Source: Isurus oxyrinchus | Lineage: Eukaryota | DNA: 64,000 nucleotides | Direction of reading: 5' to 3' | NCBI GenBank assembly: GCA_026770705.1 | Contig: JANJGN010000011.1 | Location: 149,916,001 to 149,980,000 of the forward strand | In this document: positions 1,060 through 60,900 of the stretch, piece by piece | How positions within the stretch are numbered: position 1 is the stretch's first letter | Layout of the letters: each line of letters begins with the position of its first letter | Notes under the pieces: model-generated | Databases searched by the model: none | What the model was told of the DNA's origin: nothing | The model's input: the letters and a program-made list of their open reading frames with translations, nothing else | Made by a program: the position numbers and the translations under genes

Positions 1060-1578
1060 GGTCTGGGAAAGTGTAGAGGGCAGGAGAGATTAAATGACAA
1101 AGGTGTCATGGAGCAAAAGACAAAGGGTGTGGTAATTGTTGTAGTGAAGATTCCCTTTTGCCAATTGCCAGTCTGTATCTTGTTTTCATGTTTTTGCTTC
1201 AGACAGAGCTCTTCATTATTCTGCCATTGACGCTCACTCTGAACCAACGCTTTGTTTCTTTACCACATTATTTTCACTCCCAGATTACCCCTTCCTTTGT
1301 CTTTTGTTCCATGGTATCTTTGTCATTTACTCTCTCCTACAGTCTGCCCTTTCCCAGGCCATCCCTATGTTTTTTAACTGCACCCCACACCCCCTCCTTA
1401 CAACAGCATGAAACACATTGCATTTCTACATCCTTTCAACTTTAAAGAAGTCATGTTCGACTGAAATGATAACTTTATTTCTTTCTCCACAGATGCTGCC
1501 TGACCTGCTGAGTATTTCTAGCAGTTTCTGTTGTTATTTCAAATTTCCAGCACCTGCAGTATTTTGCTTTTATTTTAG
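1060..1578 (+). mobile_element. Degenerate Penelope-like 3' region with a short inverted duplicate (~1062-1137 vs ~1284-1360)
   Basis: Ends in the family terminus ctccacagatgctgcctgacctgctgagtattt...tattttgcttttat. The upstream segment is its reverse complement. Confidence 0.7.
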
Positions 1579-1730: not shown

Positions 1731-1930
1731 TAACAAAGGCAAAATACTGGGGATGCTGGAAACATGAAATAAAAATGGAAAATGCTGGAAATATTTAAGT
1801 CTGGCAGCACCTGTGGAGAAAGAAACACATTTGGCGTTTCAAATTTGATCAAGACCTTTCTGCAGAACTGAAGGATGATAGATATGTATCAGGTTTTGAC
1901 CAAGTGAAAGAGGAGAGGGTTGGAGGGCTA
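1731..1930 (-). mobile_element. Degenerate Penelope-like 3' end
   Basis: gcaaaatactggggatgctggaaac...gcagcacctgtggagaaagaaac, homologous to 46922-47090. Confidence 0.7.
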
Positions 1931-7779: not shown

Positions 7780-8210
7780 CTCTCAGTTGGTACCACTCGT
7801 CCCTTTGAGGTTATAGGTTTGAGTCCCATTCCAGGACTTTAACACAAAAATCAAGGTGGACACTTCAGTGTAGTACTGAGGGAGGGCTGCATTATCAGAG
7901 GAGGCATGAAACCGAGACCCGTACACCCCCTCAAATAGATGTAAAAGATCCCACAGTGCCATTTTGAAGAAGAGCAGGTGAGTTATCTCCAGTCTGTTGA
8001 CCAATATTTACCCCTCAATCAACATCACTAAAACAGATTATCCGGCCATTATTACATTTCTGCTTGTCGGAGCTGACTGCGCACAAATTGGCTGCCATGT
8101 TTCCTGCATTACCAAAGTGACGACATTTCAGAAAGACTTCATTGTCTGTAAAGCGCTTTGAGACATCTGGTGGTTGTGAAAGGTGTTATAATAATGAAAG
8201 TCTTTTCTTT
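7780..8210 (+). mobile_element. DeuSINE (SacSINE1/AmnSINE1-like)
   Basis: Deu-domain-like taaaagatcccacagtgccattttgaagaagagcag...aatatttacccctcaatcaacatcactaaaacagattat, L2-type tail, and a B-box-like gtttgagtccc. Confidence 0.82.
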
Positions 8211-8825: not shown

Positions 8826-9278
8826 TGAAAGAAAAGAAAGAAAAGCTTGCATTTATATAGTGCCTTTCATGACCACAGGACATTCCAAACTGGTTTCAAG
8901 CCAATGAAATACTTTTGAAGCGTAGTCACTGTTGTAATGCAGGAAATGCGGCAGCCAATTTCTGCACAGCAAGCTTCCACAAAAGGCAATGTGATAATGA
9001 CCAGATAGACAGTTTTTATTGAATGAGGATAAATATTGGCCGGGACACTGGGGAGAGTGCCATACCCCCACTCTGCTCTTCTTTGAAATAGCACCCTAAG
9101 ATCTTTTACATCCACCTGAGAGGGCCTTGGGTTAACATTTAATCCAAAAGACAGAATCTCCAACAGTACAGAACTCCCTCGGTGCTACTGCACTGAAGTG
9201 CCAGCCTAGATTATTCTGCTCTAGTCCTGGAGTGGGAGTTTAACCTACAACCAACTGACACAGAGGCTTGAGCACATT
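8826..9278 (-). mobile_element. DeuSINE (SacSINE1-like)
   Basis: Reverse complement of 7780-8210. Confidence 0.82.
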
Positions 9279-11371: not shown

Positions 11372-12631
11372 TGTTATAGTGTGAAGTTTATAAGATTATT
11401 ATATTTTGGGACTGTACTTTTAAATTTGGGGAGGGAGGTCATGTGACCTGTTCTGAATTACATCTGACGGTAAGCCTGGGAGGTTTGATTGTTAGAGATC
11501 AAAGAAAGGCTTAGATTTTTTTACTGGAAAGGAAGTGAAGGTATTTATGCTTGGAGATAATGGCAGCAGTCTGAGTTTACAATTAGACTGAAAGTCTCCC
11601 AAAGTTACAGAAATGTGTTGTTGGTGTCAGGTTGTAAACAGTTGTGCTGTGAACTGTCTATTTACTTCTAAGATGAAAGGGAGTTGGGATTGAGAATAGC
11701 TAATTAGCATTTAAACCTGGCTGTAAGGTTAATATGTTTCACATTGTCATGGGGAAGATGCAGAGGCAGCTATTTTTGAGATTAGGTTACAGGCTTCCTT
11801 GCACATCAGGGAATATCACGGACAGACAGCAGAGGTTCTGTGTGGTGAACAGGGAGAAAAGGCTGCTTGGCTACCTCTGCCAGATGCGGGGAGTGGGGAG
11901 ATGGTCTCTAGTCGAAGAGATGGATCCTGCAGCCATTTAAGGATCATGAGAGATTTGTAGTGGCATGGCCAGGGGCAAGAAGAATCATCGGAACAGGTTT
12001 TATTGCCAATGTCGGATTTAAGGAGCTCCGGAAAACCGAGGAAAGCACATGGAGACGATCACCTGAAGCTACTACTCGACAAGACAGAGATACAGAAACT
12101 CATTGGAAGCTGGAGCTATTGTGGACTGTTTCCTCGAAGGACTGTAATTCAGTGGAGAGTGCAATGGGTGTTGAGTATAAAAGGGGAACATCATTTTCCA
12201 TAGTTTAAAGTATAAATTGCCTAAGAAAAAGAAAATAGGGTTTAGCTATTGTGTTTTTTATTATAGATGAAAAGCAGAAAATGCTGGAAAAACTCAGCAG
12301 GTCTGACAGCATCTGTGGGGAGAGAAACAGAGTTAACGTTTCGAGTCCGTATGTGAGTCTTCAGAGCTCTGAAGAGGAATCATACAGACTCAAAACATTA
12401 ACTCTTTCTCTCTCCACAGATGCTGTCAGACCTGCTGAGTTTTTACAGCACTTTCAGTTTTTATTTCAGATTTCCAGCATCAGCAGTATTTTGCTTTTAT
12501 CTTAGTGATTTTTATGAATTATTTGTTACAGTAAAAGTTTTAAAACATGAAATCTTTGTGTCAATCTTTGGGCTAATAAATAGAAGTTTGAACCTCTTTA
12601 AAAGTTATCTGTCTTTCTGGAGCTCATAACA
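11372..12631 (+). mobile_element. Solo LTR (Gypsy/ERV-like)
   Basis: TGTTAT...ATAACA termini, perfect 4-bp TSD CTAT (11368-11371 and 12632-12635). Interrupted by the Penelope mini-palindrome. Confidence 0.82.
12265..12502. mobile_element. Palindromic Penelope-derived mini-element (two inverted 3' ends, degenerate hammerhead on each strand)
   Basis: Dyad centre TCTTCAGAGCTCTGAAGA (~12358-12375). Arms match the 3' terminus of the 46.9-50.1 kb element. Nested inside a solo LTR. Confidence 0.85.
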
Positions 12632-12654
12632 CTATTTCCTCTAGGTGGGGAGTT

Positions 12655-12945
12655 TAGGAGTCGGGTATAGTCCCAAAATTAAAGCCATACCTTTCAGGAA
12701 TGAAATTAAGGAAACATTTCTTTGTGCAAGGGGTGGTAAAGTTTGGAACGCTCCTCTGGAAAGGGCAAATGATGCTGGATTAATTCTTAGTTTTAAAACT
12801 GAGATTGATAGATTTTTGTTAGCCAAAGGTATTAGGGGACATGGGACAAAGGTGGGTAAATGGAGTTAAGTTGCAAATCAGCCATAATTGCATTGAAGCA
12901 CAGGCTTTGATGGGCTAAAAGACCTACTCTTGTTCCTATATTCTC
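12655..12945 (+). mobile_element. CR1 LINE 3' fragment
   Basis: FRNEIKETF...V.K.WN...SFKTEIDRFL. Confidence 0.75.
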
Positions 12946-17242: not shown

Positions 17243-18445
17243 TTTTTTTAAAAATCATACATGGAATGTGGGCTTCGCTGGCTGGGCCAGTAATTATTGC
17301 CCGTCCCTAGTTGCCCTTGAGAAGATGGTGGTGAGCTGCCTTCTTGAACTGTTGCAGTCCATGTGGTGTAGGTACACCCACAGTGCTGTTAGGGAGGGCT
17401 TTCCAGGATTTTGACCCAGCGACAGTAAAGGAACAGGGATATATTTCCAAGTCAGGATAGTGAGTGACTTGGAGGGGAGCTTCCAGGTCCTAATATTCCC
17501 ATGTATCTACTACCTTTGTCCTTCTAGATAGTGCTGGTCATGGATTTGGAAGGTGCTGTCTAAGGAGTCTTGGTGAATTCTTGCATTGCATCTTGTAGGT
17601 GGTACACACAGCTGCTACTGTGCATCAGTGGTGGAGGGACTTAATGTTTGTGGATGTGGTGCCAATCAAGTAGGCTGCTTTTTCCTAGATGGTGTCAAGC
17701 TTCTCGGGTGTTGTGGGAGCTGCACTTATCCAGGCAAGTGGGGAGTATTCCATCACACTCCTGACTTGTGCCTTGTAGGTGGTGGACAGGCTTTGAGGAG
17801 TCAGGAGATGAGTTACTCATCACAGGATTCCTAGCCTCTGACCTGCTCTTGTAGCCACAGTATTTATATGGCTAGTCCAGTTCAGTTTCAGCCCAATGGT
17901 AACCCCCAGGATGTTGATAATGGGGGATTCAGTGATGGTAATGCCATTGAACGTAAAAGGGCGATGGTTAGATTCTCTCTTGTAGGAGATGGTCATTGCC
18001 CGACACTTGTGTGGTGCAAATATTATTTGCTACTTGTCAGCCCAAGCCTGGATATTGTCCAGGCCTTGCTGCATTTGGACATGGACTGCTTCAGTAATTG
18101 AGAAGTTGCGAATGGTGCTGAACATTGTGCAGTCATCAGTGAACATGCCCACTTCTGACTTTGTGATGGAAGGAAGGACATTGATGAAGCAGCTGAAGAT
18201 GGTTGGGCTGAGGACACTACCCTGAGGAACTCCTGTGGTGACGTCCTGGAGCTGAGATGACTGACATCCAACAACCACAACCATCTTTCTTTGTGCTAGG
18301 TACGACTCCAACCAGTGGAGAGTTTTCCCATTGACTGCAGTTTTGCTAATTGATGCCACACTCGGTCAAATGCTGCCTTGATGTCAAGGGCAGTCACTCT
18401 CACCTCACCTTGGGAATTCAGCTCTTTTGTCCATAGTTGAACTTG
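17243..18445 (-). mobile_element. 5'-truncated CR1-group LINE (RT remnant)
   Basis: GVPQGSVLSPTIFSCFIN...MFTDDC and ALDIKAAFDRVWH RT motifs. The 3' tail is shared with the tRNA SINEs. Confidence 0.88.
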
Positions 18446-32495: not shown

Positions 32496-33104
32496 CTCAT
32501 GCTGTATATACTGTGATTAGCATAACTCTGCTATTTTACCTTTTAATACTTTATTTCCTACATTCTCACTAATATTTGTCTGTCCTCACAACATTTTTAA
32601 ATTAGCCTTTTAAAAGCACAGCTTTCCAATTTCCTGTGTTACTACTTCATAATAATGCTCATATCTTTGTGCTCTTCCTTAAGCTAAGCAATGCTTTTCT
32701 CACTTTCATTTAGGCTCTTTCAGTTATTGGCACAACCCACCATATATTTATGACATTGCCCGTGTTGGCCATCTCCTTATCATACTTTGGGAGCTGACCT
32801 CCCCATGCTAAAAATATCCTCACAATTTTCTAATAGCAGTTTCATAATGACCTGTAGTGCATCAATGTCACAAAGACATGTTCACAGTTGGCATTGAGTC
32901 ATTGCCTAGTACTGGTGCATTCTCCACAGCTGGATTAACACATTTTATTTGCATCTTTCTTACTACTACTTGACTGTTTCTGAAGTGCTGATGCAGATGC
33001 ATCATTGACTGCTAGTTTGTTGTTACCACTAATGAAATCAGGCTTTTAGGAATCTATGTTTGGAGAATGTGCGTTCTTGCTATTTTGTCAATGGTTTCCC
33101 TTTT

Positions 33105-35270
33105 ATTATTGTTTCATGGGATGTAAGCATCGCTGACAAGGCCAGCATTTGTTGCTGCTCCCTAATGGCCCTTACCAAGTTGGTGGTGAATCGCCTTCCA
33201 GGACTGCTGTAGTCCATGTGGTGTAGGAAAACCCACCGTGCCGGTAGGAAGGGAGTTCCAGGATTTTTACCCAGTGATAGTGAAGGAATGACAATATAGT
33301 TCAAAGTCAGGATGGTGGGTGGCTTGGAGAGGAACTTGCAGATGGCATTGTTCCCATGTGTCTGCTGCGCTTGTCCTACTAGGTGGTAAAGTTTAGCAGT
33401 TTGAAAGGTGCTGTCGAAGGAGCCTTGGTGGTTTGCTGTATTGTATCTTGTATACACTGCTGCCAGTCTCTGCTGGCGGCAGAGCGAGTCAATGTTTAAG
33501 GTGATGGATAAGGTGTCAGTCAAGCAGGCTGCTATGTCCTGGATGGTGTTGGGTTTCTTGAGTGTTGTTGGAGCTACACCCATTCAGTCAAGTGCAGAGT
33601 ATTCCATTCCAATCCTGACTTGTGCCTTGTAGATGGTGGACAGGCTTTGGGGAGTCGGGGAGTGAGTCACTTATCACAGAATTCCCAGCCTCTGACCTGG
33701 TCTTGAAGCCACAGTATTTATATGGTTAATCCAGTTCAATTTCTGGTAATGGTAACAACCAGGATGTTGATGTTGGACGATTGAATAATGATAATGCCAT
33801 TGAATGTCAAGAGGAGATGGTTGAATTATTTCATGTTTAAAATGGTCATTGCCTGGTACATGTGTGGCAAGAATGTTACTTGCTACTTATCAGCCTTGAA
33901 TGTGCCCCAGGCCTTGGTGCATTTGGGCATGGTCAGCTTCAGTATCTGAGGAGTCTTGAATGGTACTGAGCAATGTGCAATCATCAGTGAACATCCCCAC
34001 TCCTGACCTTAAGATAGAGGGAAGGTCATTGATGATGCAGCTGAAGATGGTTGTGTGCCTAGCACACTATCCTGAGGAGCTCCTACAGCAAAATCATATA
34101 GCTAACATGATTGACCTCAAACAACCAGAACCATTTTCATTTGTGCTATTTATAACGCCAACCAGTGGAGAGTTTGCCATTTGATTCCTATTGACTTCAA
34201 TTTTGCTAGAGATCTTAAATGTTAAACTTCTGATAGCCAGTTGGTGAAGGAGGAGACCAGAAGTCAATCTTTACTCAGTTTAGATTTATTCAAAAAGTGA
34301 AACATTACGAGTCTTTAGCTGTTAAACCTATTCAAACCTCAGTGTTAATAAGTGTCCTTTATATGTGCTCAGATAATGAAAGCCCTCCACCTATTTATCC
34401 TTACCCTTCCTTTATGAAATTAACACTTGATGCCACTCTCTGTCAATTGCAGTCCATTTCACCTCACCTGTGATATTCAGCTCATCTGTCCATGTTTGGG
34501 TCTAGGCTGTAATGAGGTCTGGAGTAGAATGGCCCAGGGTGGAACCCAAACTGAACTTCAGTGAACAGGTTATTCCTGAGTAAGTGGCACTTGATAGTAT
34601 TGTCAATGACACCTTCCATCACTATGCTGATGATCGAGAGTATACTGTTGGGGCAATAACTGGCCAGATTGCATTATGAGGTCAAGACATATCAGGTCAA
34701 TTTTCAACATTGCTGTTTGATGGCAGTGCTGTAGCTGTACTAGCACAGCTTGGATAGTGGCATGACTAGTTCTGGAGCACAAGTCTTCAGTACAATAGCC
34801 GGGATGTTGTCAGGGCCCATAGCCTTTGCTACATCTAGTGCCTTCAGCCATTTTTTGATATCATGTTGAGCGAATCAAATTGGCTGAAGACTGGCATCTA
34901 TGATACTGGGTACCTCGGGAGGAGTTTCAGATGGATCATCCACTCGGTACTTCTGACTGATGATGGTTGCAAATGCTTCAGCCTTGTCGTTTGCATGGAT
35001 GTTCTGGGCTCTACCACCAATGAGCATGTGGGTATATTTGGAGCCACCTCTCTGGCTAGTTGTATAATTGCCCAGTACCATCCATGACTGGATGTGACAA
35101 GACTACAGAGCTTAAATCTGATCCATTGGTTGAGGATCACTCTTTTCTGTCTATCACATGCTGCTTCTGCAGTTTAGCCTTCATGTAGTCCTGTGTTGTA
35201 GCTCCACCAAGTTGGCATCTCATTTTTAAGCATACCTGGTGCTGCTCCAGATATGCTCTCCTACACTCTT
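33105..35270 (-). mobile_element. CR1-group LINE, same family as 17243-18445, decayed
   Basis: Collinear with 17243-18445 and extends upstream (DKAEAFATI.SQK.RVDDPS). Confidence 0.85.
34220..34425 (-). mobile_element. Short solo-LTR-like insertion within a LINE
   Basis: TGTTAA...TTAACA termini. Minus-strand TATAAA (~34360) precedes AATAAA (~34287). LINE sequence resumes on both sides. TSD imperfect. Confidence 0.6.
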
Positions 35271-37078
35271 CGTTTTTTCACTTTGATCTGTACATACGCT
35301 CTGTTTGATTGTATAATATACATCTGTGTAGCCCAACCATTACACATTCTTGATCCATTAGTGCTTCCATGTATTCTTAACTTAGATGTTTTAACAAATC
35401 ACCATACATGATGTTATGTCTCAGCCATTAACACTATGCATTATTTATATCGCGGTTTATAGGAGAAAATTCAGTGAAGAGTGAAGTGGCCCTCCTGCTC
35501 CAACAAATCTTGTAGCACTATTGGTGAACACAGAAAACCCAGTACCAAACACCTTATTACTGAAATACTCTAGCCATCTAAATCTGGAAGACTTGTTGGA
35601 ACTGGGTTTCCGGTTGAAATTGTTTGAACGTTTTACAGACGTTCTGCTCTGTGAGAACATTGTACGTTGAGGTGGGTTATGAAAACGTTAGGATGCTCAG
35701 CATTTAACTTGTACTTTTGTTGCTTAGTTTGAACCCAAATTGAATCAAGCCCAAACATCTGGCCCAATTCTTGGTGTACTCATTCTTAACTGGAACTCAA
35801 TAATGAGCTTTACATTTTAAGTAGGAAAGGGCCCCAAATTTGTTTTTTAATTAAGTTTAATTGAGCACAGAGTGAATGCGAGCTACACAGCAGTGTGAGA
35901 CTGAGATGCACAATTGGCATTTAACCACATCTACATTTTTAAAAACATGTACTTGTATTCTAGAAATGAGGTGAATTGGTATTTTCAAGCCCAGCACTAC
36001 AAAATTCCATCGACTCAGCCTTAGAAATGTACCTTACAAGGAGCACCCTCTACTGCACCATTGAGAGCATTTTCATTTTTAACACTGGTCAGCTTTTAAG
36101 GCCTTTGTGAATAAAATTCTCAATATAGTGGAGATTTGTTATGAATTATGAGTGGGCTGGTAGTATAAGTTCCTGCTCTGTCAGGATTGGGTTGTGATTA
36201 TATAGACTGTTTTTATTGGGGAGTTTTATAGCAGACAAATAGGAGAAATGTTCTTTATGTAGAACAGGATTCAAAAGCCAGCATCCACAAATGAAATGCA
36301 TTCCCTTTTTTGTCACTGCCACCCCAATTCCTCAGCATGAATGATGATAACATGTGTCACAATAGGAGTGAATTGTAGGCAAAGGGGTAGTTAAATGACC
36401 GCAATTTCAGAGGGCAAAGATCTATTTATTTTTGTTTGGCATTAATGCTGACAGAATTAAATTTCATTTTCAATCCCGTTGTGCCAAATGAATTACTTCC
36501 CACTGGGCTCTCAATGTTTTCCAACAGTGCTAACTGTGCCAGATGATCCAGATGTGCAATTTCAGACCGAATATCCTGATGCTGGAGAGGGATTGTGCAT
36601 GCACTTTGCAAGTGTACCGAATACCTTAGTCTGCATAAATTGGAAACGTTCTTCACTTGTATCTAGTCACTGTTACTATTTGCCATTTTTACAAAAGAAC
36701 AGAAAAAGAAAATTGCACAAAATAAACAGACAAGAAAATTGTGACAGTAACAAATTTAAAGTGACAAAAGATGCTGCCATTATGTTGTAAATAACAGGGA
36801 TCCATTCAACAAATTTCAGGATAATATGGTGAAAAGTTACATAAAGTATGCTAAGCACCATGATTCAGTGATCTCAAATGGCCTGGAGATGGCAACTATT
36901 GGTTTCCCTGCACTTGTGAAATCCTTATTCTCCTGTAAGATTTTTATCTGCACGTAGAGCTGCTCACAATTGCGGAAAGATAAAACTGTGCAAAGATCGT
37001 CACAACACTGGACCCTCACGCCTTGTTGTTGCACAGAGCTAAAGCAGATTCATTGGATTACCCAAATAGACACTGCTG

Positions 37079-37205
37079 AAGGGTCATGAGGACTCGAAAC
37101 GTCAACTCTTTTCTCCTCCGCCGATGCTGCCAGACCTACTGAGTTTTTCCAGGTAATTCTGTTTTTGTTTTAGATTTCCAGCATCCGCAGTTTTCTTTGT
37201 TTTCA
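37079..37205 (+). mobile_element. Single Penelope 3' end truncated at the hammerhead core
   Basis: AAGGGTCATGAGGACTCGAAACGTCAAC... followed by the family 3' terminus. TSD ACTGCTG at 37072-37078 and 37206-37212. Confidence 0.82.
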
Positions 37206-37553
37206 ACTGCTGTTATCTTGTTTAGCTTTATAATAGGGCCATTGTTTTCTGTATGAGAAGGGGTAAAGTGGTACGGTAGAACAATGATGAGCAAAGTTTA
37301 GAACCACCTTGGCTACTACAGCAGTGTCAATAATGTAGCAAGACCACCACAATATTTAATAGCATCAACTTTAGAGAGTTTCAATTGACCAAAGCGAGTG
37401 CTTAAATTCTGGTTTAAAAAAAAGAATGACGGTAGCCTCGCTGCTGCCAGTTAAAATAGCTTGGGATATAGGTGTCTTTTTTTTTAAAACATCAAGCAAC
37501 TTCTTGTTTGCAAGCAGAAAAATCCAGGGCAGCAACATGTACATGGCAGCACA

Positions 37554-37764
37554 AAAACAGAAATACCTGGAAAAACTCCGCAGGTCTGGCAGCATCGGTG
37601 GAGAAGAACAAAGTTGACATTTCGAGTCCTCATGACCCTTCAACAGAACTCGAAACGTCAACTTTGTTCTTCTCCGCCGTTGCTGCCAGACCTGCTGAGT
37701 TTTTCCAGGTATTTCTGTTTATGTTTTGGATTTCCAGCATCTGCAGTTTTTTGTTTTTATCTCT
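37554..37764. mobile_element. Palindromic Penelope-derived mini-element
   Basis: Inverted arms meet at ~37648. TSD ATGTAC(A/G)TGGCAGCACA at 37537-37553 and 37765-37781. Minus-strand hammerhead-like motif at 37612-37650. Confidence 0.9.
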
Positions 37765-46812: not shown

Positions 46813-47006
46813 TGCAGCCACTGCCACTTAGTGGTTGAGGAAGGGTTTGTATTGAAAATGGATAGTGCCCATGTTACCAAACTGGATCCGCACTCTCAGG
46901 TTCAATGTTATCAATCTTGCATAAAAGCAAAATACTGCGGATGCTGGAAATCTAGAACAAAAACGAAAATACCTGGAAAAACTCAGCAGGTCTGCGGAGA
47001 GGGATA

Positions 47007-47047
47007 CAGTTGATGTTTCGAGTCTGTATGACCCTTCATCAGAACTA
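47007..47047 (-). ncRNA. Minimal hammerhead ribozyme motif (inverted arm copy)
   Basis: Minus strand reads TAGTT-CTGATGA-A-GGGTC(ATACA)GACTC-GAAAC-ATC-AACTG. Stem III CpG is mutated (ACGT>ACAT). Confidence 0.75.
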
Positions 47048-50005
47048 AGACATATAGAAATGAGGTGAAATATAAGCTGGTAGAGGGGGGTGAGTGGGAA
47101 AGGTAGAGCTCGATAGGGAGCCAGTGATAGGTGGAGGCCAAGAAGAGACTGCCAAAGGTGTCACAGAATAAAGGACAAAGGGGTGTTGATGGTGGTGATA
47201 TTATCTAAAGGATGTGCTAATGGGGACATTAAGGGTAGAAAGCAGGACGAGCAAGTGGCAGATGGCCCTAGTGGGGGTGGGGTGGGGGGAAGGGATCGAA
47301 ATGGGCTAAAAGGTGGAGATGAAACAATGGATCGAAATAAATTTACAAATAGGAGGGAAAAGAAAAATATTTGTAATAATTTTTTTTAATTATTGGAAAA
47401 AGGGGGATCGGAAAGAGGGTGGGGATGGAGGAGAGAGTTCATAATCTAAAATTGTTGAACTCAATCTTCAGTCCAGAAGGCTGTAAAGTGCCTAGTCGGA
47501 AGATGAGGTGTTGTTCCTCCAGTTTGCGTTGAGCTTCACTGGAACAATGCAGCAGGCCAAGGACGGACATGTGGGCATGAGAGCAGGATGGAGTGTTGAA
47601 ATGGCAAGCGACAGGGAGGTCTGAGTCATGCTTGCGGGCAGACTGAAGGTGTTCCACAAAGCAGTCACCCAGTCTGCGTCTGGTCTCTCCAATGTAGAGG
47701 AAACCGCATTGGGAGCAACGAATGCAGTAGACTAAATTGAGGGAAGTGCAAGTGAAATGCTGCTTCACTTGAAAGGAGTGTTTGGGCCCTTGGACGGTGA
47801 GGGGGGAAGTAAAGGGGCAGGTGTTGCACCTTCTGTGGTTGCATGGGAAGGTGCTGTGGGAGGGGGTTGAGGTGTACAGGGTGATGGAGGAGTGGATCAG
47901 GGTGTTCCAGAGGGAATGATCCCTGCGGAATGTTGCCGGGGGGATGAAGGGAAGATGTGTTTGGTGGTGGCATCATGCTGGAGTTGGCGGAAATGGCGGA
48001 GGATGATCCTTTGAATGCGGAGGCTGGTGGGGTGATAAGTGAGGACAAGGGGGACCCTATCATGGTTCTGGGAGGGAGAGGAAGGTGTGAGGGCGGACGC
48101 GCGGGAGATGGGCCAGACACAGTTGAGGACCCTGTCAACCACTGTGGGTGGAAAACCTCAGTTAAGGAAGAAGGAAGACATGTCAGTGAAACTGTTTTGG
48201 AAAGTGACATCATCAGAACAGATGTGACGGAGGCAAAGGAACTGAGAGAATTGGATGGAGTCCTTACAGGAAGCGGGGTTTGAGGAGCTGTAGTCGAGGT
48301 AGCTGTGGGAGTCAGTAGGCTTGTAATGAATATTGGTGGACAGTCTATCACCAGAAATTGAGACTGAGAGGTCAAGGAACACGCACTATTCTCTCACTGA
48401 ACAATTTCTCCTTAAACTCATCTCACTTCCTCTAAATAAAAGGTGTGGCTATGGGTACCCAAATGAGCCCCAGTTATGTCTGTCTCTTTATGGGGTATGT
48501 GGAACATTCCTTGTTCCAGTCCTACACAGGCCCCCTCCCACAACTCTTTCTCCGGTACATCGATGACTGCTTCAGTGCCACTTCATGCTCTCGTCTGGAC
48601 TTGGAAAAATTTATTAATTTTGCTTCCAATTTCCACCCCTCCATCATTTTCACGTGATCCATCACTGACACTTCCCTTCCCTTCTTTGACCTCTCTGTCT
48701 CAATTTCTGGTGATAGACTGTCCACCAATATTCATTACAAGCCTACCGACTCCCACAGCTACCTCGACTACAGCTCCTCACACCCCGCTTCCTGTAAGGA
48801 CTCCATCCCATTCTCTCAGTTCCTTTTCCTCCGTTGCATCTGTTCTGATGATGCCACTTTCAAAAACAGTTCCTCTAACATGCCTTCCTTCTTCCTTAAC
48901 TGAGGTTTTCCACCCACAGTGGTTGACAGGGCCCTCAACCATGTCTGGCCCATCTCCCGCACCTCCACCCTCACACCTTCCTCTTCCTGCCAGAACCATG
49001 ATAGAGTCCCCCTTGTCCTCACTTAACATCCCACCAGCCTCTGCATTCAAAGGATCATCCTCCGCCATTTCCGCCAACTCCAGCATGATGCCACCACCAA
49101 ACACATCTTCCCTTCATTCCCCCCTGGCAGGTTTCTGCAGGATTGTTCCCTCTGGGACACCCTGGTCCACTCCTCCATCACTCCCTACACCTCACCCCCT
49201 CCCAAGGCACTTCCCATGCAACCGCAGAAGGTGCAACACCTGCCCCTTTACTTCCCCCCTCCTCACCGTCCAAGGGCCCAAACACTCCTTTCAAGTGATG
49301 CAGCATTTCACTTGCACTTCCCTCAATTTAGTCTACTGCATTCGTTGCTCCCAATGCGGTTTCCTCTACATTGGAGAGACCAAACGCAGACTGGGTGACC
49401 GCTTTGCGGAACACCTTCAGTCTGTCCGCAAGCATGACCCAGACCTCCCTGTCACTTGCCATTTCAACACTCCACCCTGCTCTCATGCCCACATGTCCGT
49501 CCTTGGCCTGTTGTAACGTTCCAGTGAAGCTCAACACAAACTGGACGAACAGCACCTCATCTTCCGACTAGGCACTTTACAGCCTTCTGGACTGAAGATT
49601 GAGTTCCACAATTTTAGATCATGAACCCTGTCCTCCATCCCCACCCCCTTTCCGATCCCCCCTTTACCAATAATTTAAAAAATTTTATTACAAATATTTT
49701 TCATTTCCCTCCTATTTTTAAATTTATTTCGATCTATTGTTTCATCTCCACCTTTTAGCTCATTTCGATCCCTTCCCCCCACCCCACCCCAACTAGGGCC
49801 ACTTGCTTGTCCTGCTTTCTACCCTTAATGTCCCCATTAGCACATCCTTTAGCTAATATCACCACCATCAACACCCCTTTGTCCTTTTGTCTATGACACC
49901 TTTGGCAGTCTCTTCTTGGCCTCCACCTATCACTGGCTCCCTATCGAGCTCCTCCTGTCCCACCCCCATCTACCAGCTTATATTTCATCTCATTTCTATA
50001 TGTCT

Positions 50006-50046
50006 TAGTTCTGATGAAGGGTCATACAGACTCGAAACGTCAACTG
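50006..50046 (+). ncRNA. Minimal type I hammerhead ribozyme motif in the Penelope 3' region
   Basis: TAGTT-CTGATGA-A-GGGTC(ATACA)GACTC-GAAAC-GTC-AACTG: intact core, stems I and II pair, palindromic ACGT stem III as in Penelope-like element (PLE) hammerheads. Confidence 0.85.
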
Positions 50047-50702
50047 TATCCCTCTCTGCAGATGCTGTCAGACCTGCTGAGTTTTTCCAGGTATTTTTGT
50101 TTTTGTTATCAATCTTGCAAGTGGATCTGAATGCTTTATTCTTACCAGAGTTGACTCATGCTGACCTGTACCTTAATAGTGTAATGCAGGGATATAACTA
50201 TAGTATTCTCCTTATGATCTGGTCCTGAGATACATGTCTTTTGCGCAAGTCCTTCTTCAAATCTCTCCAGTGGTGGACTGAGTTAACACTTGGTGGGACA
50301 AGGCTGACTTCATGCTGAATAAACATACAGAGCATAGTTTGGATCAGGTTCATTTTGTTCAATTAGTATGTCTTTCCATAATGATACAAAAGTAATACCA
50401 CATCCTCCGATCACTTTGTATGATTCCGACAAGCGATCTTCTCACTGTTCCTCCAGAACCTCTGACTTTCAGCCTCCCTAAAGCTTTTGTAGCTCTGAGT
50501 TTAGCAGCTCTTACAGATTCCCTTTGTTTCTAGGAGTCTGTCTCCACCCCTCTGCGTGCTGACATGAAGGGATGAAAAGCCTTTGCAACACATGTTGTTC
50601 CTGTGATCACCCTGACCAGTTAACAAATTCCTAGTTGTTCAGCCTATGGAGAAAGCATCTTCAATTTAGCATGCACATGATTTTTTAAAAACTTGAAAAT
50701 AC

Positions 50703-51894: not shown

Positions 51895-52050
51895 TCCCAG
51901 CCATCTGTGGAGAGAGAGACAAGAGTTAATGTTTCAGGTCGTTGACCCGTCATCTTGAAAGTTCATCGATCTGAAACATTACCTCAGTTTCTCTCTCACT
52001 TGATGCTGTCAGGCCTGCTGAGTATTTCCAGCATTTTCTGTTTTTATCTG
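51895..52050. mobile_element. Older palindromic Penelope-derived mini-element
   Basis: catctgtggagagagagacaagagttaatgtttcag ... ctgaaacattacctcagtttctctc...gatgctg, inverted arms with the family terminus. Confidence 0.7.
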
Positions 52051-55231: not shown

Positions 55232-55784
55232 AATAGATAAAAGCAAAAAACTGTGGATGCTGGAAATCCAAAACAAAAATAAAAATACCTGGAAAAACTC
55301 AGCAGGTCTGACAGCATCTGCGGAGAGGAGCACAGTTAATGTTTCGAGTCCGTATGACTCTTCAACAGAACTAAGGAAAAATAGAAAAGAGGTGAAATAT
55401 AAGCTGGTTTAAGGGGGGCGGGGTGGGACAGGTCGAGCTGGATAGAAGGCCAGTGATAGGTGGAGATAACCAAAAGATGTCATAGACAAAAGGACAAAGA
55501 AAGGGTAGAAAGCAGGATGAACAAGGTACAGATAGCTCTAGTGGGGTTGAGGTGGGGAGAACGGATCGAAATAGGCTAAAAGGTAGAGATAAAACAATGG
55601 ATGGAAATACATTTAAAAATAATGGAAATAGGTGGGAAAAAGAAAAATCTGTATACATTATTAGAATAAAGGGGGATGGGAAAGGGGATGGGGATGGAGA
55701 AGAGAGTTCATGATCTAAAATTGTTGAACTCAATATTCAGTCCAGAAGGCTGTAAAGTGCCTAGTCAGAAGATGAGGTGTTGTG
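55232..55784 (-). mobile_element. 5'-truncated Penelope-like element inserted into a CR1 LINE
   Basis: Homologous to 46922-47510 (GIY-YIG C-terminus and 3' region with a hammerhead at 55333-55373). TSD TCCTAGTGAA at 55222-55231 and 55785-55794, and the CR1 sequence resumes across it. Confidence 0.9.
55333..55373 (-). ncRNA. Hammerhead-like motif with CUGUUGA core variant
   Basis: Minus strand reads TAGTT-CTGTTGA-A-GAGTC(ATACG)GACTC-GAAAC-ATT-AACTG. Confidence 0.65.
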
Positions 55785-57379
55785 TCCTAGTGAATCTCCT
55801 CTGCAGCCTCTCCAGTGCAATCACGTCCTTCCTATAGTGTGACGACCAGAACTGCACAAAGTACTCTAGCTGTGGCCTAACTAGCATTTTATACAGCTCC
55901 AACATAACCTCCCTGCACTTAAGTCCTATGCCTCGGCTAATAAAAGCAAGTATCCCATATGCCACCTTAACCACATTATCTTCCTGTGCTGCTGCCTTCA
56001 GGGCTCTATGGACATGTACACCAAGGTCCCTCTGATCCCCTGTACTTCCTAGGGTCCTACCATTCATTGTGTATTCCCTTTCTGTGTTAGTCCTCCCATA
56101 GTATGATTCTAGAGCCTTCTTTTTCTTACAGGTAAATGTTGCAGTTTTATATGCTAATAGGTAATAACATACAAATGAGAAAGTGAGGTCCTAGGGTGGT
56201 ACCAGTTGGTTATTTTTCTTTGGAATTTGTCACAAGTTATCAGCCCATCAACCAGGCAACTGCAACTTGAAGCTCAAACGTAAACTTACGAGGGTCTAAC
56301 TAAAGGCAAAATGCATATTCTGTACATGAACATATTTTTCCAATATTTTTTTCCCAGGATCTTACATCGGAATGTCAAAAACTCTCCCATATATATTCAG
56401 CTACTGGGAGAAGCAACAGGTTATACAGTAGTTACCGTCTTGGTATGTTTTGTTAGTATAGGTTAGGTTACGCATACCCTAGTGATGGGAGTATTTGATT
56501 AAGAGGGTCATATGTTCAACCATGGATCAGTCCCTGATTACCTGGTGAAACCCTGTTGGTAATAAGCAGTTTACTACGAGCAGTTTTTAAGTCAAAATCC
56601 TGGAACTCCCTCCCTAACAGCACAGTGGATGTACCTAAACCACATGGACTGCAGCAGTTCAAGAAGGGAGCTCACCACCACCTTCTCAAGGCAATTAGGG
56701 CTGGGCAACAAAAGTGCTGGCCTAGCCTACAATGCCCACGTCCCATGTAAGAATTTTTTTTAAAAACTAAACTTTAGTTCCTGGGCACTGATTGGAGGTA
56801 AGCATTGAGCATTTTATGTTCTTGTTTTGGCATTTGACTGTCCCAAAAGCATGGGTATTCATTGGCCAAAATTCTGGTCAATGCACAAATGCCCCTCAAC
56901 CATAAAGGAGCACCCAACCTTCACAGCCAGGGAACTTGTACTTCAATTTATTTTTTTCTTTATTATCCAAAAGGAAGCTAAGACACATCACCAGCCATTG
57001 CAAGGAACCTGAATTTGTGGGAGAGATTAACTGACATAATGGAAAGGGATGAAATTTGCAAACTAACTTAATTGTTCATTCCAACATTTTTACAAACTGC
57101 AGTCTAACTCGTACCTGTGTTGTTTCAGAATGTTGGACATTTTATCAGTTTCACTAATATTCCTGTTTAAAGATGGTTTAAACCAATATGTAAGGTTTAT
57201 TTATGTAGCAATTGAAATATTTTAGACAACACAGCTGTAATCAAGTTATTTATCAAATTTCCACCAATGTACTTGCTCTTCAGATATGCTCCTTTATTAC
57301 TTTATATTAGCTGATGTGTATTTCTGCACTTTTTATCTAAAATACTTAAGTGATTGTTATTTCTGTTTTATTTTAACAG

Positions 57380-57920
57380 TCTCCACGAGACCCTAACTTT
57401 TCAGATATGGAAGCTGTCCCTATTTTGCTTAACAATGTGAAAGCAGAACCTCCAGAGGACTTGCTATCCACCGATCAATATCAGACACAAACTGAGCCAG
57501 TGGACTTGTCCATTAACAAAGCCCGGACATCACCAACAGCAGTATCATCGTCACAGTCCTCACCCAGCTCAGTGTCAACAACCTCAGTCTCTTCAATGTC
57601 CTCTTGCTCTCCTCGATTGACTTCATCCCCAACTGTGATAACCTCAGTGTCTTCATCATCAGGAATGTCAACAGTATTAGCATCGGGCTCTATTGTGGCA
57701 TCTTCACCGGCTGTTGGGGGCCAGCAGTACTTGCACATAATCCACCCGGTGCCACCTTCAAATCCTATGAATTTTCAGTCCAGCAAACTGAGTCACGTGC
57801 ATCGCATTCCAGTGGTTGTACAGTCCCTTCCTGTGGTCTACACTGCCATGAGGTCACAGAGGAACCTCAACTCCACCATTGTACTCCCAATGTTAGAGGA
57901 TGGCAGGAGTCAAATGAAAG
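57380..57920 (+). CDS. KLF12: KLF12 repression-domain exon (541 bp, phase 0/1)
   Basis: Acceptor ttttattttaacag|TCT, donor AAAG|gtaaga. Translates SPRDPNFSDMEAVPILLNNVKAEPPED...EPVDLSINKARTSPTAV...HVHRIPVVVQS...LEDGR, which contains the PVDLS CtBP motif and a VKAE SUMO-type motif and is near-identical to recalled KLF12. Confidence 0.96.
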
Positions 57921-60900
57921 GTAAGAGCACTGAAACAAGACAGCAGATGGGCACAATTAGAACTGGAAATACTATACTGGTGTAATGGGAAACCAAGGTG
58001 CAGTACCAACAGGTTTTCAGCCAACCTTTCAGCTGAAGGCATTTGAGCATATAGTAAAGCCATAACAGTTCTTTACTTGCTTTACCTGAAATAAGTACAT
58101 GCAAATTTACATTCATCCTCCATTCTTTAATTTGTATTTTCTTTCCCTCTATAGATTTCCTGCATGTGTGCAGCACTCGCTAACTAGGTTGTTAGGCCGT
58201 TGATTTATCCACAGTTCCAAAGGAGGTGTATAATTTTTGTCTCTGATTTCGAACCCTGACTTCCCCTCCCCTATCCCCAATAGGTAAGTATCTCTTTATG
58301 CTTACTGCCTCATAAATGGACTGACTGAGGTAGAGCCTCACCCTTGCAAGGAAAGATGAATTTTCATGGTAACCCACCTCCCCACTTAGTTTCCTGGGAC
58401 ACTAAGCATAGCATCCCCAGATTGCCTTCATAATCAGTCAATCTTAGTGAACTGCTCTGCAGCATTCACCCTTTTACTTTGCTACTTTGAATAGATTCTT
58501 GGTAAGCAAGGGGTTAGGCAGGATGCAGATTTGAGGTTACTATCAAATCAGCCATGATCTCATAAAATGGCAGAGCAGGCTTGATGGGCTGAATGGCCTA
58601 CTCCTGCTCCTTGTTCGTATGTTTGTATGTAAATGTCCCGGTCCAATTCACGTTGCAGAATAAAACGAGTGGCCCTCCCATGGCTGTTGCAGGAAGGGTG
58701 GCCAGGGTTGCACACTTGCAAATTTCGTGAGAGATGTGCTCTGATAATGAACTAAAAATTGAAATAATGGATACGTTATTGTTTGTGGTTGTGGATTTGC
58801 TTTGTAGTTACAATATTCTCCTCCCACACGTTAAAGCAAGTGTAGACATTTTCCTAAGAGAGGTGCTGCATTAATTATTGGATTGAACAGAAAGCAAACG
58901 ATAATTTGGATGAATTGACCTGTGCGATAAGTATTAAAATCATTTATGTTTATTGATAATGCACAAAAAATGTCATCTGTAATTACACATGGAAATGAAC
59001 AGACAATGGTTATCCGAGTCTGTGGACAAAGCTAAGTAAAATGACACCTCTTTGCCATCTTTGTGACTGGAAACAAACTGTTTCACTTTTGGACGACATA
59101 TGCTGCTGCGACAAACTTTCAAAATGGCAAGCGAGAAAGAACTTTTCAAGAAACCAAGACAAAAGGTTGACAAAGGGAACTGAAAGAAATACAGCAGGAC
59201 CTTTATGGGGCTTTCCCTGAAAGACCGACCCAGCATCATGACCCTGAAATAGCCAAGTTGAAGTAGCCAAAAAGATCAACAGATTAAGAGTGTAAGAGAG
59301 GTGGCAGAACCGGAAAAAAATGAGATCGACCCAATCAACAGATGCCTTTGGTACTGGTGTGCTGATTCACTACATATCCAGTGTCATTCACTGCATAAAG
59401 GTACCAAACACTTGTGATGCAGCATAATTTCATAGGCATTGCTTTATGTAGAGATCTTACAAGGATCCCTAATCTTCATAGTCCTCCCATGGCTGAATTC
59501 TAAAAACTATAATTTAAAGAAATGTTTCCAATCTAATGCAGTTGTCTTTATGATACGGGTTGGCAGACGACTTTTAAAATACAGATTGTTTCTGCAATTA
59601 CACCTTTGCAGATGATTCATTGTCATCACTACATTCTGATAGCTCTCCAGGGGATGAACTCATCATGATTTCTGAAGAAGAACTCTCTAAAACCTTATGG
59701 AGAAAGGGGTGCAGTCCGAAAATTCTCTGGTGCCAGCGTTGTCACCAAAACCATGAAGAGACCCCAGACAGCTGGAGGGTGGGGTACTCTATGGCACTAC
59801 TCCCTGGAAAGGCTGCTATACAAGCAATATTTTTTTTAAGAAGGGAAATAATCCATAAGAAGAAGTTGGGCATTAAGTTGGAAACTATCCACTTCATATG
59901 CAGAACAGCTGGAAACAGGGAGTAATCCAGACACTGGAAATGTCATTGTTATTATGAAAGTTTCTTTGAAAAAAATGTACGTGTAAAAAGAAATGACACA
60001 ATTACATCATTTTGTGTCATGCATGCATCACAGCTTGGCTTAAACCCCAAGCTGCGTAACTATCGAACCAAACTGTTGACAAGTCCAGTAGAGAAAAGGT
60101 ACCCTGCCATGTGCAGTTTATGAATGAAGGCTATTAGATTGGTGCCTAATTGGTGCCTTCTTATGTTAAGTCTGGTGGAATGAATCTTGAGTACCACTGT
60201 GGCTGATATGCCAGTTCCCACCGGGGCTCCCTCTGTGGAGTTTTCTTTCAGAGATTCATCTAATTTTTCTGTTTAGAACTGCATTTTTATGCACTGTTCC
60301 CTAGTAACTCAGTTATATCGTTTCTACTAACATACAATAAATTTATGTTTTTTTTTGTTCTATTGCCTTTGTTAAATAAAATGTTGGCTTTGATCACATT
60401 CATCTACCTCCCTGGCAGATCCATCTAGCTCCCTGTGGATCGTCAGATACTATTTAAATCAAAAAACAAATTGCTGCAAAATATGCCATACAAAACAAAT
60501 TAAGCTATGTCCCCCATTTTCAATTGCTGAGTACGTTTTATATGAGGGGAACGGGATTTTCTAGGCAGCAGGGTCAGGCCTGTCAGAAGGAGAAGGGTGT
60601 AAGAGACTGAGAAGCTGGATGGGAACTATTTCACGAGAACCTTATTTCCATTCACACTGAATGCAATCTTCCAACTAGCCCTTAGCTGGCTTTGTCACGA
60701 TATGCCAAAGAATGAAAAATCACCCCTTGTGATTTCCTGTCTGTTTAGCATAGAATTGCAATGTGGCCTCTCTGCTTGCCCATCTGGAGTGGATTTCAAT
60801 TGTAAGTTAAAGCTTTGATATGTGTCTGTGTAGTATGGCCGTGCAGAATAACCGACGAAAGAGCTGCAATAAATAGATAACAAGGGTGACAGACATCACT

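What the first reader, a model, noticed from the sequence alone, without database searches (positions are those of the whole stretch)
12265..12502. Mini-palindrome with a hammerhead motif on each strand (ambisense-ribozyme hairpin)
Seen: a ~240 bp element whose dyad (TCTTCAGAGCTCTGAAGA) sits directly 5' of the CUGAAGA core on both strands. The + strand reads CTGAAGAGGAATCATACAGACTCAAAACATTAACTC and the - strand reads CTGAAGACTCACATACGGACTCGAAACGTTAACTC. Both are degenerate in this copy. Inference: either extreme truncation products of fold-back integration, or a self-propagating non-autonomous retrozyme/MITE-like family whose rod-like RNA with paired opposite-polarity hammerheads resembles viroid-like RNAs.
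Basis: partly seen in the sequence, partly recalled or inferred. Interest (0 to 1): 0.7.

Follow-up and report, generated by a model that had tools for sequence, protein, structure and literature searches.

The report
Fold-back stub of a Penelope retrotransposon
This 240-base DNA hairpin is two mirror-image tail ends of a Penelope-like jumping gene, each with a decayed hammerhead ribozyme motif, and is most likely an ordinary dead leftover of that gene's insertion rather than a viroid-like RNA.

Summary
The palindrome is real (arms 87/103 identical; fold z = -16.7), with a broken minimal hammerhead on each strand. Both arms are the 3' end of a Neptune-type Penelope-like element (PLE) whose RT and GIY-YIG remains lie at 46922-50106. 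Only one arm has the 37-nt tail, a PLE signature. The window's four fold-backs have four different junctions, and contigs of four public runs give over 1,000 different joints, some fold-backs without any hammerhead. Opposite-strand hammerhead pairs from truncated PLEs are in print (PMC4209133). The scan noted the same kind of unit in another genome (e1-9995956). No tandem unit, one cut site per strand and a 31-40 kcal/mol cost of folding the ribozyme argue against a retrozyme or viroid-like RNA. One loose end: arm 5' ends cluster at the hammerhead's 5' border, a candidate splice acceptor (6 of 12 arms), and this dyad may recur in roughly 10-25% of subfamily arms, so a palindromic non-autonomous family is not excluded (about 15%). 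Verdict: new member of a known kind, low interest.

The parts
12267..12368 (-). Left arm: 5'-truncated 3' end (pLTR) of the PLE, without the tail
   Evidence: 83-88% identical to the 3' ends at 50023-50104 and 55289-55364; ends at the same place as the tail-less arms at 37551 and 50106
12365..12502 (+). Right arm: 5'-truncated 3' end (pLTR) of the PLE, with the tail
   Evidence: 81% identical over 137-138 nt to 55235-55372
12358..12375 (.). Central dyad; AGCT (12365-12368) is shared by both arms; axis AG|CT sits at the 5' border of hammerhead helix I and at the position of a candidate 3' splice acceptor of the parent
   Evidence: AGCT is part of the subfamily sequence (loose ends at 12353); acceptor role inferred only
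12365..12403 (+). Degenerate minimal type I hammerhead; GAAA box and helix III CG mutated
12331..12368 (-). Degenerate minimal type I hammerhead; core boxes intact, helix II broken
12466..12502 (+). 37-nt one-sided tail typical of PLE insertions
   Evidence: feature described in PMC8557442 and PMC11167929
12251..12261 (+). Possible decayed target-site duplication, left copy (right copy 12505-12515); not significant
   Evidence: 10 of 11 match; p 0.018 against random window pieces but 0.53 against shuffled flank
46922..50106 (.). Large fold-back copy of the parent Neptune-type PLE: C-terminal RT (YIDD), C-x4-C-x2-C linker, GIY-YIG, intact-core hammerheads at 50011(+) and 47042(-), 15-bp exact target-site duplication
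55236..55783 (-). Single-arm 5'-truncated copy with tail and 10-bp target-site duplication
37551..37762 (.). Second mini fold-back, different junction (3-nt overlap, right arm cut inside helix II), 17-bp near-exact target-site duplication
51902..52049 (.). Third mini fold-back, sister subfamily, junction inside the core box on both arms
37073..37204 (+). Solo short arm starting 2 nt inside the helix I border

Best explanation
The element is two 5'-truncated 3' ends of a Neptune-type Penelope-like retrotransposon joined head to head, likely made in one insertion when the element's protein nicked both DNA strands, primed two short cDNAs and joined them at the self-complementary AGCT. Shown: both arms derive from the PLE 3' end; only one has the tail; sibling copies have 10-17 bp target-site duplications and different junctions; the ribozyme motifs here are decayed. 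Inferred: the two cDNAs start at the two known RT start sites (one gives the tail), both stopped at the 5' border of the hammerhead, a truncation hot spot that may be a splice acceptor or RNA 5' end, and were joined by microhomology or bluntly at AG|CT. The hammerhead on each strand is then a passenger of the duplicated pLTR, and the copy has decayed neutrally as DNA.
For: Arms match the 3' end of a PLE in the same window at 80-88%. That PLE has RT, linker and GIY-YIG (Pfam GIY-YIG 22.6 bits, at the curated cut-off) and its closest named relatives are shark and ray proteins at 59-68% identity. One-sided 37-38 nt tail in 3 of 4 fold-backs in the window; the fourth has one arm cut short. Target-site duplications of 15, 17 and 10 bp in 3 of 6 copies tested. 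Four fold-backs, four junctions. In the 2 informative fold-backs (37551, 46922) the tail-less arm reaches further 5' than the tailed arm, so neither arm is a subset of the other, which fits two cDNAs. Contigs from other loci bridge the centre with 1, 5, 13, 6, 6, 10 and 5 gap letters (7 bridging pieces among the 32 listed of 212,717), and 15 joints shown plus 991 not shown include 12305-12313 to 12419 fold-backs with no hammerhead. A 12223-to-12521 skip in 9 (X1) and 8 (X10) contigs fits an empty site in other copies of an older repeat. Literature: inverted 5'-truncated copy and 30-40 bp one-sided tail (PMC8557442, passages); both strands cut and extended, two RT start sites, hammerhead not needed for insertion in vitro (PMC11167929, passages and part of main text); dual minimal hammerheads on opposite strands 100-700 bp apart tied to truncated PLEs (PMC4209133).
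Against: The target-site duplication of this copy is not significant. The AGCT dyad seems to recur: summed depth at 12363 is 21% (X1) and 26% (X10) of that at 12376, and about 100 (X1) and 81 (X10) contigs are aligned through 12357 against 968 and 727 clipped at 12353; recurrent formation needs a hot spot that I infer but did not show. The splice acceptor is only a sequence pattern (15, 15 and 19 pyrimidines of 20 before TTAG; 3.3% of AG sites in the window look so). No whole genome was held, so junction classes were not counted locus by locus. Neptune was assigned by the linker motif, not by a tree.
Confidence: 0.7

Rival explanations
1. A non-autonomous palindromic PLE family: once formed, the hairpin is transcribed from either strand, each transcript offers one sense arm to the Neptune protein, and twin priming rebuilds the same AGCT junction at new sites.
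For: The dyad appears to recur in roughly 10-25% of subfamily arms that reach the hammerhead, in two organisms (indirect). On the minus strand the dyad lengthens helix I from 3 to 6 pairs (constrained fold). pLTR sequences suffice for mobilisation in trans (PMC3846280, passages).
Against: 4 of 4 junctions in the window differ; over 1,000 joints in the runs. Majority letters at 12376 and 12379 make the right arm the mirror of the left, so no arm-specific consensus is visible. A shared truncation hot spot plus a self-complementary 4-mer gives the same junction without inheritance.
Confidence: 0.15
2. Same PLE origin, but the second arm arises by self-priming (snap-back) on one template, not by two primed cDNAs.
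For: PMC3846280 (Discussion read) reads palindromes at inverted junctions as self-priming on an antisense template. The 37551 junction has a 3-nt overlap compatible with a hairpin primer.
Against: In both informative fold-backs each arm has sequence the other lacks (tail on one, longer 5' part on the other). A fold-back on AGCT would have no loop (inference).
Confidence: 0.12
3. A retrozyme or viroid-like circular RNA with paired ambisense hammerheads, integrated or expressed from this locus.
For: One hammerhead motif per strand and a rod-like fold resemble the paired-ribozyme RNAs of PMC10162972 (passages). Animal retrozymes derive from pLTRs (10.64898/2026.07.22.740005).
Against: No tandem repeat at the locus; one site per strand cannot release a unit-length monomer; forcing the ribozyme fold costs 30.7 (+) and 40.5 (-) kcal/mol; a core base is lost by a CpG-type change; 7 of 13 substitutions between arms break pairing on both strands and none is compensated; the rod is just the inverted duplication.
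Confidence: 0.02
4. A MITE moved by a DNA transposase.
For: Short, palindromic, non-coding, very abundant (127,720 contigs laid from one run).
Against: Ends are not mirror images (one-sided tail); arms also occur solo and as ends of an RT-coding element; sibling duplications are 10-17 bp and vary.
Confidence: 0.01

Closest known systems
Insertion units of endonuclease-positive Penelope-like elements, Neptune clade (PMC8557442, PMC3846280, PMC11167929)
   Same: Head-to-head inverted 5'-truncated copies, one-sided 30-40 bp tail, palindrome at the junction, variable target-site duplications, hammerhead in the pLTR, C-x2-5-C-x2-C linker in the parent
   Different: Here both arms are cut to about 100 and 138 nt, so nothing but pLTR is left; arm ends cluster at the helix I border
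Opposite-strand pairs of minimal hammerheads in Schistosoma mansoni (PMC4209133)
   Same: Two minimal type I hammerheads on opposite strands, attributed to truncated PLEs
   Different: Reported spacing about 100-700 bp; here the two motifs overlap by 4 bp; different host lineage
Drosophila virilis Penelope pLTR, intron end at the 5' end of helix I (PMC4209133)
   Same: A candidate acceptor (pyrimidine tract + AG) lies at the 5' end of helix I in the long copies here
   Different: Splicing is not shown here; different PLE clade
Non-LTR retrozymes of animals (PMC7229834; 10.64898/2026.07.22.740005)
   Same: Short, non-coding, pLTR-related, type I hammerhead
   Different: Retrozymes are head-to-tail tandem repeats with a hammerhead in each unit and give circular RNA; this is a single head-to-head pair
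Viroid-like RNAs with paired ambisense ribozymes (PMC10162972)
   Same: One hammerhead motif per polarity, rod-like fold
   Different: Those are circular RNA replicons without a DNA form and with active ribozymes; this is genomic DNA, an inverted duplication, with decayed motifs

Membership tests
PLE insertion unit (EN+ PLE) | Sequence derives from the 3' end/pLTR of an element coding RT plus C-terminal GIY-YIG | tested here: met
   80-88% identity to 3' ends of 46922-50106 and 55236-55783; RT and GIY-YIG
PLE insertion unit (EN+ PLE) | Inverted 5'-truncated copy joined head to head | tested here: met
PLE insertion unit (EN+ PLE) | 30-40 bp tail at one end only | tested here: met
   37 nt, 12466-12502
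PLE insertion unit (EN+ PLE) | Target-site duplication (optional, variable) | tested here: inconclusive
   10/11 match, not above shuffled flank for this copy; clear in 3 of the other 5 copies tested
PLE insertion unit (EN+ PLE) | Minimal type I hammerhead in the pLTR | tested here: met
   intact cores at 50011(+) and 47042(-); decayed here
Neptune clade | C-x2-5-C-x2-C zinc-finger-like linker between RT and EN | tested here: met
   C-x4-C-x2-C in P0002; shared with Nematis and Naiad per PMC8557442
Neptune clade | RT phylogeny groups with Neptune references | not tested
   no named reference set at hand; only Neptune and Poseidon were reported in vertebrates (passage)
Non-LTR retrozyme | Head-to-tail tandem units, each with a hammerhead | tested here: not met
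   no tandem array at the locus among 10 rows for the window
Non-LTR retrozyme | Expressed as unit-length circular RNA | not testable with these tools
   only contigs of runs guessed to be RNA were available
Viroid-like RNA with paired ribozymes | Intact, foldable ribozyme in each polarity | tested here: not met
   core or helix II broken on each strand; 31-40 kcal/mol penalty in the rod
Viroid-like RNA with paired ribozymes | Circular RNA replicon without a DNA counterpart | tested here: not met
   genomic repeat with more than 79,000 contigs laid in each of two genomic-scale runs
MITE | Mirror-image termini and fixed short target-site duplication of a DNA transposase family | tested here: not met
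   asymmetric ends; sibling duplications 10, 15, 17 bp
Self-propagating palindromic non-autonomous PLE | Same junction inherited across loci with shared arm-specific variants | tested here: inconclusive
   junctions mostly differ, but the AGCT dyad appears to recur in a minority; inheritance not testable without the genome

The most novel reading that the evidence does not exclude
The AGCT hairpin is a fixed-junction, palindromic, non-autonomous Neptune family of cartilaginous fishes, with its axis on a splice acceptor at the hammerhead's 5' border, that copies itself as a unit from transcripts of either strand and makes up a tenth to a quarter of its subfamily: a retro-mobilised look-alike of a MITE.
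Probability: 0.15. Interest if true: 0.6.

Novelty: new member of a known kind. Interest (0 to 1): 0.2.

Why it matters
As it stands it is ordinary repeat debris and a warning: PLE fold-backs give rod-like sequences with a hammerhead on each strand, and could pass as viroid-like RNAs or MITEs in screens. The useful residue is the clustering of arm ends at the hammerhead's 5' border. PLE integration steps after first-strand synthesis are still unvalidated (PMC11167929), and a very abundant family with many short fold-backs would let one test twin priming against self-priming, and spliced or short templates against full-length ones, by counting junctions.

Tried and rejected
No whole genome was held, so copies could not be catalogued. 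Rfam: nothing at gathering score in the window; only hairpin-shaped miRNA models far below their cut-offs near the element. Dyad scan of metagenome contigs: 15 loci, all 15 match only the 18-21 nt dyad, chance. Arm motifs: 0 hits in viral contigs and 0 in prokaryote genomes. No RNA holder was listed; runs X18 and X19 are only guessed to be RNA and are contigs, so they say nothing on expression, ends or circles. Presence of this insertion at the same locus in organism B could not be told: flank contigs stop at 12237 and 12527 in both organisms and no listed piece spans the element. The 'opposite strand' joints 12275-12278 to 12457-12464 were rejected as evidence: they arise because the reference's left arm lacks the tail. 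The first 9,000 characters of a tblastn of 122 proteins against the arms showed no convincing match to the pLTR frames, so no protein support for use of the candidate acceptor. One search was a self-comparison and gave nothing. Paper searches for a shark PLE palindrome listed none that describes it; Repbase and Dfam could not be searched and no supplements were read, so it may be on record there. Look-ups of earlier notes by sequence and place were blank.

Full report
Observation. The dyad lies at 12358-12375 with its axis between 12366 and 12367. The arms run about 12267-12368 and 12365-12502 and agree at 87 of 103 aligned columns. The strand folds to -131.7 kcal/mol, z = -16.7 against 200 shuffles. 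Each strand carries a minimal type I hammerhead pattern: helix I strand, CUGANGA, helix II, GAAA, CGUH (numbering and core boxes recalled; architecture as in PMC4209133, parts 1 and 2 of 4 read). My descriptor found 4 motifs in the window and 0 in each of 5 mononucleotide shuffles; Rfam models did not detect them. Both motifs of this copy are damaged: on the plus strand GAAA reads AAAA and the helix III CG reads CA; on the minus strand the 5' strand of helix II is scrambled.

What the arms are. The element matches seven other places in the window. The largest, 46922-50106, is itself a fold-back with arms 92% alike. Its frames hold the C-terminal part of a reverse transcriptase with YIDD, a C-x4-C-x2-C linker and a GIY-YIG domain (Pfam GIY-YIG at its cut-off, RVT_1 only weak at E 0.094). 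Of 165 homologues found among longer proteins, 120 were listed; the closest named ones are shark and ray proteins at 59-68% identity, with RT-linked Pfam domains. This is an endonuclease-positive PLE, Neptune-type by its linker (PMC8557442, passages), most likely in a cartilaginous fish. Its 3' ends carry intact-core hammerheads at 50011 and 47042, and the finding's arms are 80-88% identical to these ends. So a hammerhead on each strand follows directly from duplicating one pLTR in inverted orientation.

Insertion signature. Only the right arm has the last 37 nt; the same one-sided tail marks 37551-37762 and 46922-50106. A 30-40 bp one-sided tail and an adjacent inverted truncated copy are standard for PLEs (PMC8557442; PMC3846280, passages and Discussion; PMC8969392, passages), and the tail corresponds to two RT start sites of an enzyme that cuts and extends both strands in vitro (PMC11167929, passages and second part of main text). 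Target-site duplications are clear in 3 of 6 copies tested (15, 17, 10 bp); for this copy the 10-of-11 match is no better than shuffled flank. A skip from 12223 to 12521 in 9 and 8 contigs of two runs fits an empty site in other copies of an older repeat.

Are the junctions alike? In the window, four fold-backs have four junctions. I laid four public runs on 12100-12700 at 80% likeness: 127,720, 79,402, 5,666 and 5,595 contigs, so the family is very abundant in two organisms (depth is not a copy number). Loose ends behind 12353 (968 and 727 contigs) continue through TCTTCAGAGCT into A-rich sequence, so CUGAAGA and AGCT belong to the subfamily itself. Fifteen joints are shown and 991 are not; those shown include fold-backs from 12305-12313 to 12419 that lack the hammerhead altogether. 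Seven of the 32 listed pieces bridge the centre, from other loci, with 1 to 13 gap letters. Heterogeneity is the rule. Against a purely random picture: depth at 12363, just left of AGCT, is 21% (X1) and 26% (X10) of depth at 12376, and about 9-10% of contigs that reach 12353-12357 are aligned on through the mismatched block. I read these as dyad-type copies, which is an inference; the tool also warns that not all differences in X1 were counted. In the three long arms that border is TTAG preceded by 15, 15 and 19 pyrimidines of 20, a pattern met by 284 of 8,580 AG sites, and in D. virilis Penelope the intron ends at the 5' end of helix I (PMC4209133). The dyad axis AG|CT falls exactly there. 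Splicing is not shown.

Mechanism. Most likely one insertion by twin priming: nicks on both strands, two cDNAs from the two start sites, both stopping at the hot spot, joined by the self-complementary AGCT or bluntly at AG|CT (the sequence cannot tell these apart). Support for two cDNAs: in the 2 informative fold-backs the tail-less arm extends further 5' than the tailed arm. Self-priming, as proposed in PMC3846280, remains a rival. After insertion the copy decayed: of 13 substitutions between arms, 7 break pairing on both strands, 2 give G-U on plus, 4 on minus, and three are CpG-type changes within the plus-strand hammerhead.

Ribozyme function. Minimal hammerheads need a second same-polarity copy and cleave poorly (PMC4209133). 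A transcript of this locus has one motif per strand, locked in the rod; forcing the ribozyme fold costs 30.7 and 40.5 kcal/mol. There is no tandem unit, which retrozymes need (PMC7229834, passages; 10.64898/2026.07.22.740005, part 1 of 5 and passages). Viroid-like RNAs with paired ribozymes are circular replicons without a DNA form (PMC10162972, passages). One point for the other side: on the minus strand the dyad supplies five extra pairs to helix I, which may be chance from a repeated CTCTG.

Known or new. Opposite-strand pairs of minimal hammerheads 100-700 bp apart, tied to truncated PLEs, were reported in 2014. My searches listed no paper on this shark family or on a junction hot spot at helix I; repeat databases and supplements were not seen and may hold it.

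Verdict. Observation confirmed; fold-back PLE by-product 0.82 in all (twin priming 0.70, self-priming 0.12); self-copying palindromic family 0.15; retrozyme or viroid-like 0.02; MITE 0.01. New member of a known kind; interest 0.2.

Noticed in passing
window 46922-50106: 3.2-kb fold-back Neptune-type PLE, arms 92% alike with 302 nt unique to one arm, 15-bp exact target-site duplication, broken frames, intact-core hammerheads on both strands
   Followed up: yes
window 50007-50008, 47045-47046, 55371-55372: Pyrimidine tract plus TTAG right at the 5' end of helix I, a candidate splice acceptor that coincides with the dyad axis; an ATG in the core box opens a frame through the tail in the 50011 copy
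   Followed up: partly
window 57377-57985: Coding exon with a PVDLS motif; nearest Atlas cluster is named KLF transcription factor 8 at score 0.89, a lead only; KLF12-like is recalled. The element may lie in an intron or flank of this gene
   Followed up: partly
window 1453-1576 (+) and 1733-1867 (-): Two older arms of a sister subfamily facing tail to tail with about 157 bp between, the opposite arrangement to the fold-backs
   Followed up: no
window 12112-12245 and 12521-12600: An older low-copy repeat into which the element appears to have inserted (joint 12223 to 12521)
   Followed up: partly
joints 12305-12313 to 12419: A second junction cluster giving very short fold-backs with no hammerhead, several different linkers
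   Followed up: no
window 8030-8205 and 8841-9016: Another inverted pair, 176 nt at 72%, 635 nt apart
   Followed up: no
window 17246-18334 and 33101-34184: Two copies of a 1.1-kb interspersed repeat, 73-84% alike, with further inverted copies at 56591 and 61198
   Followed up: no
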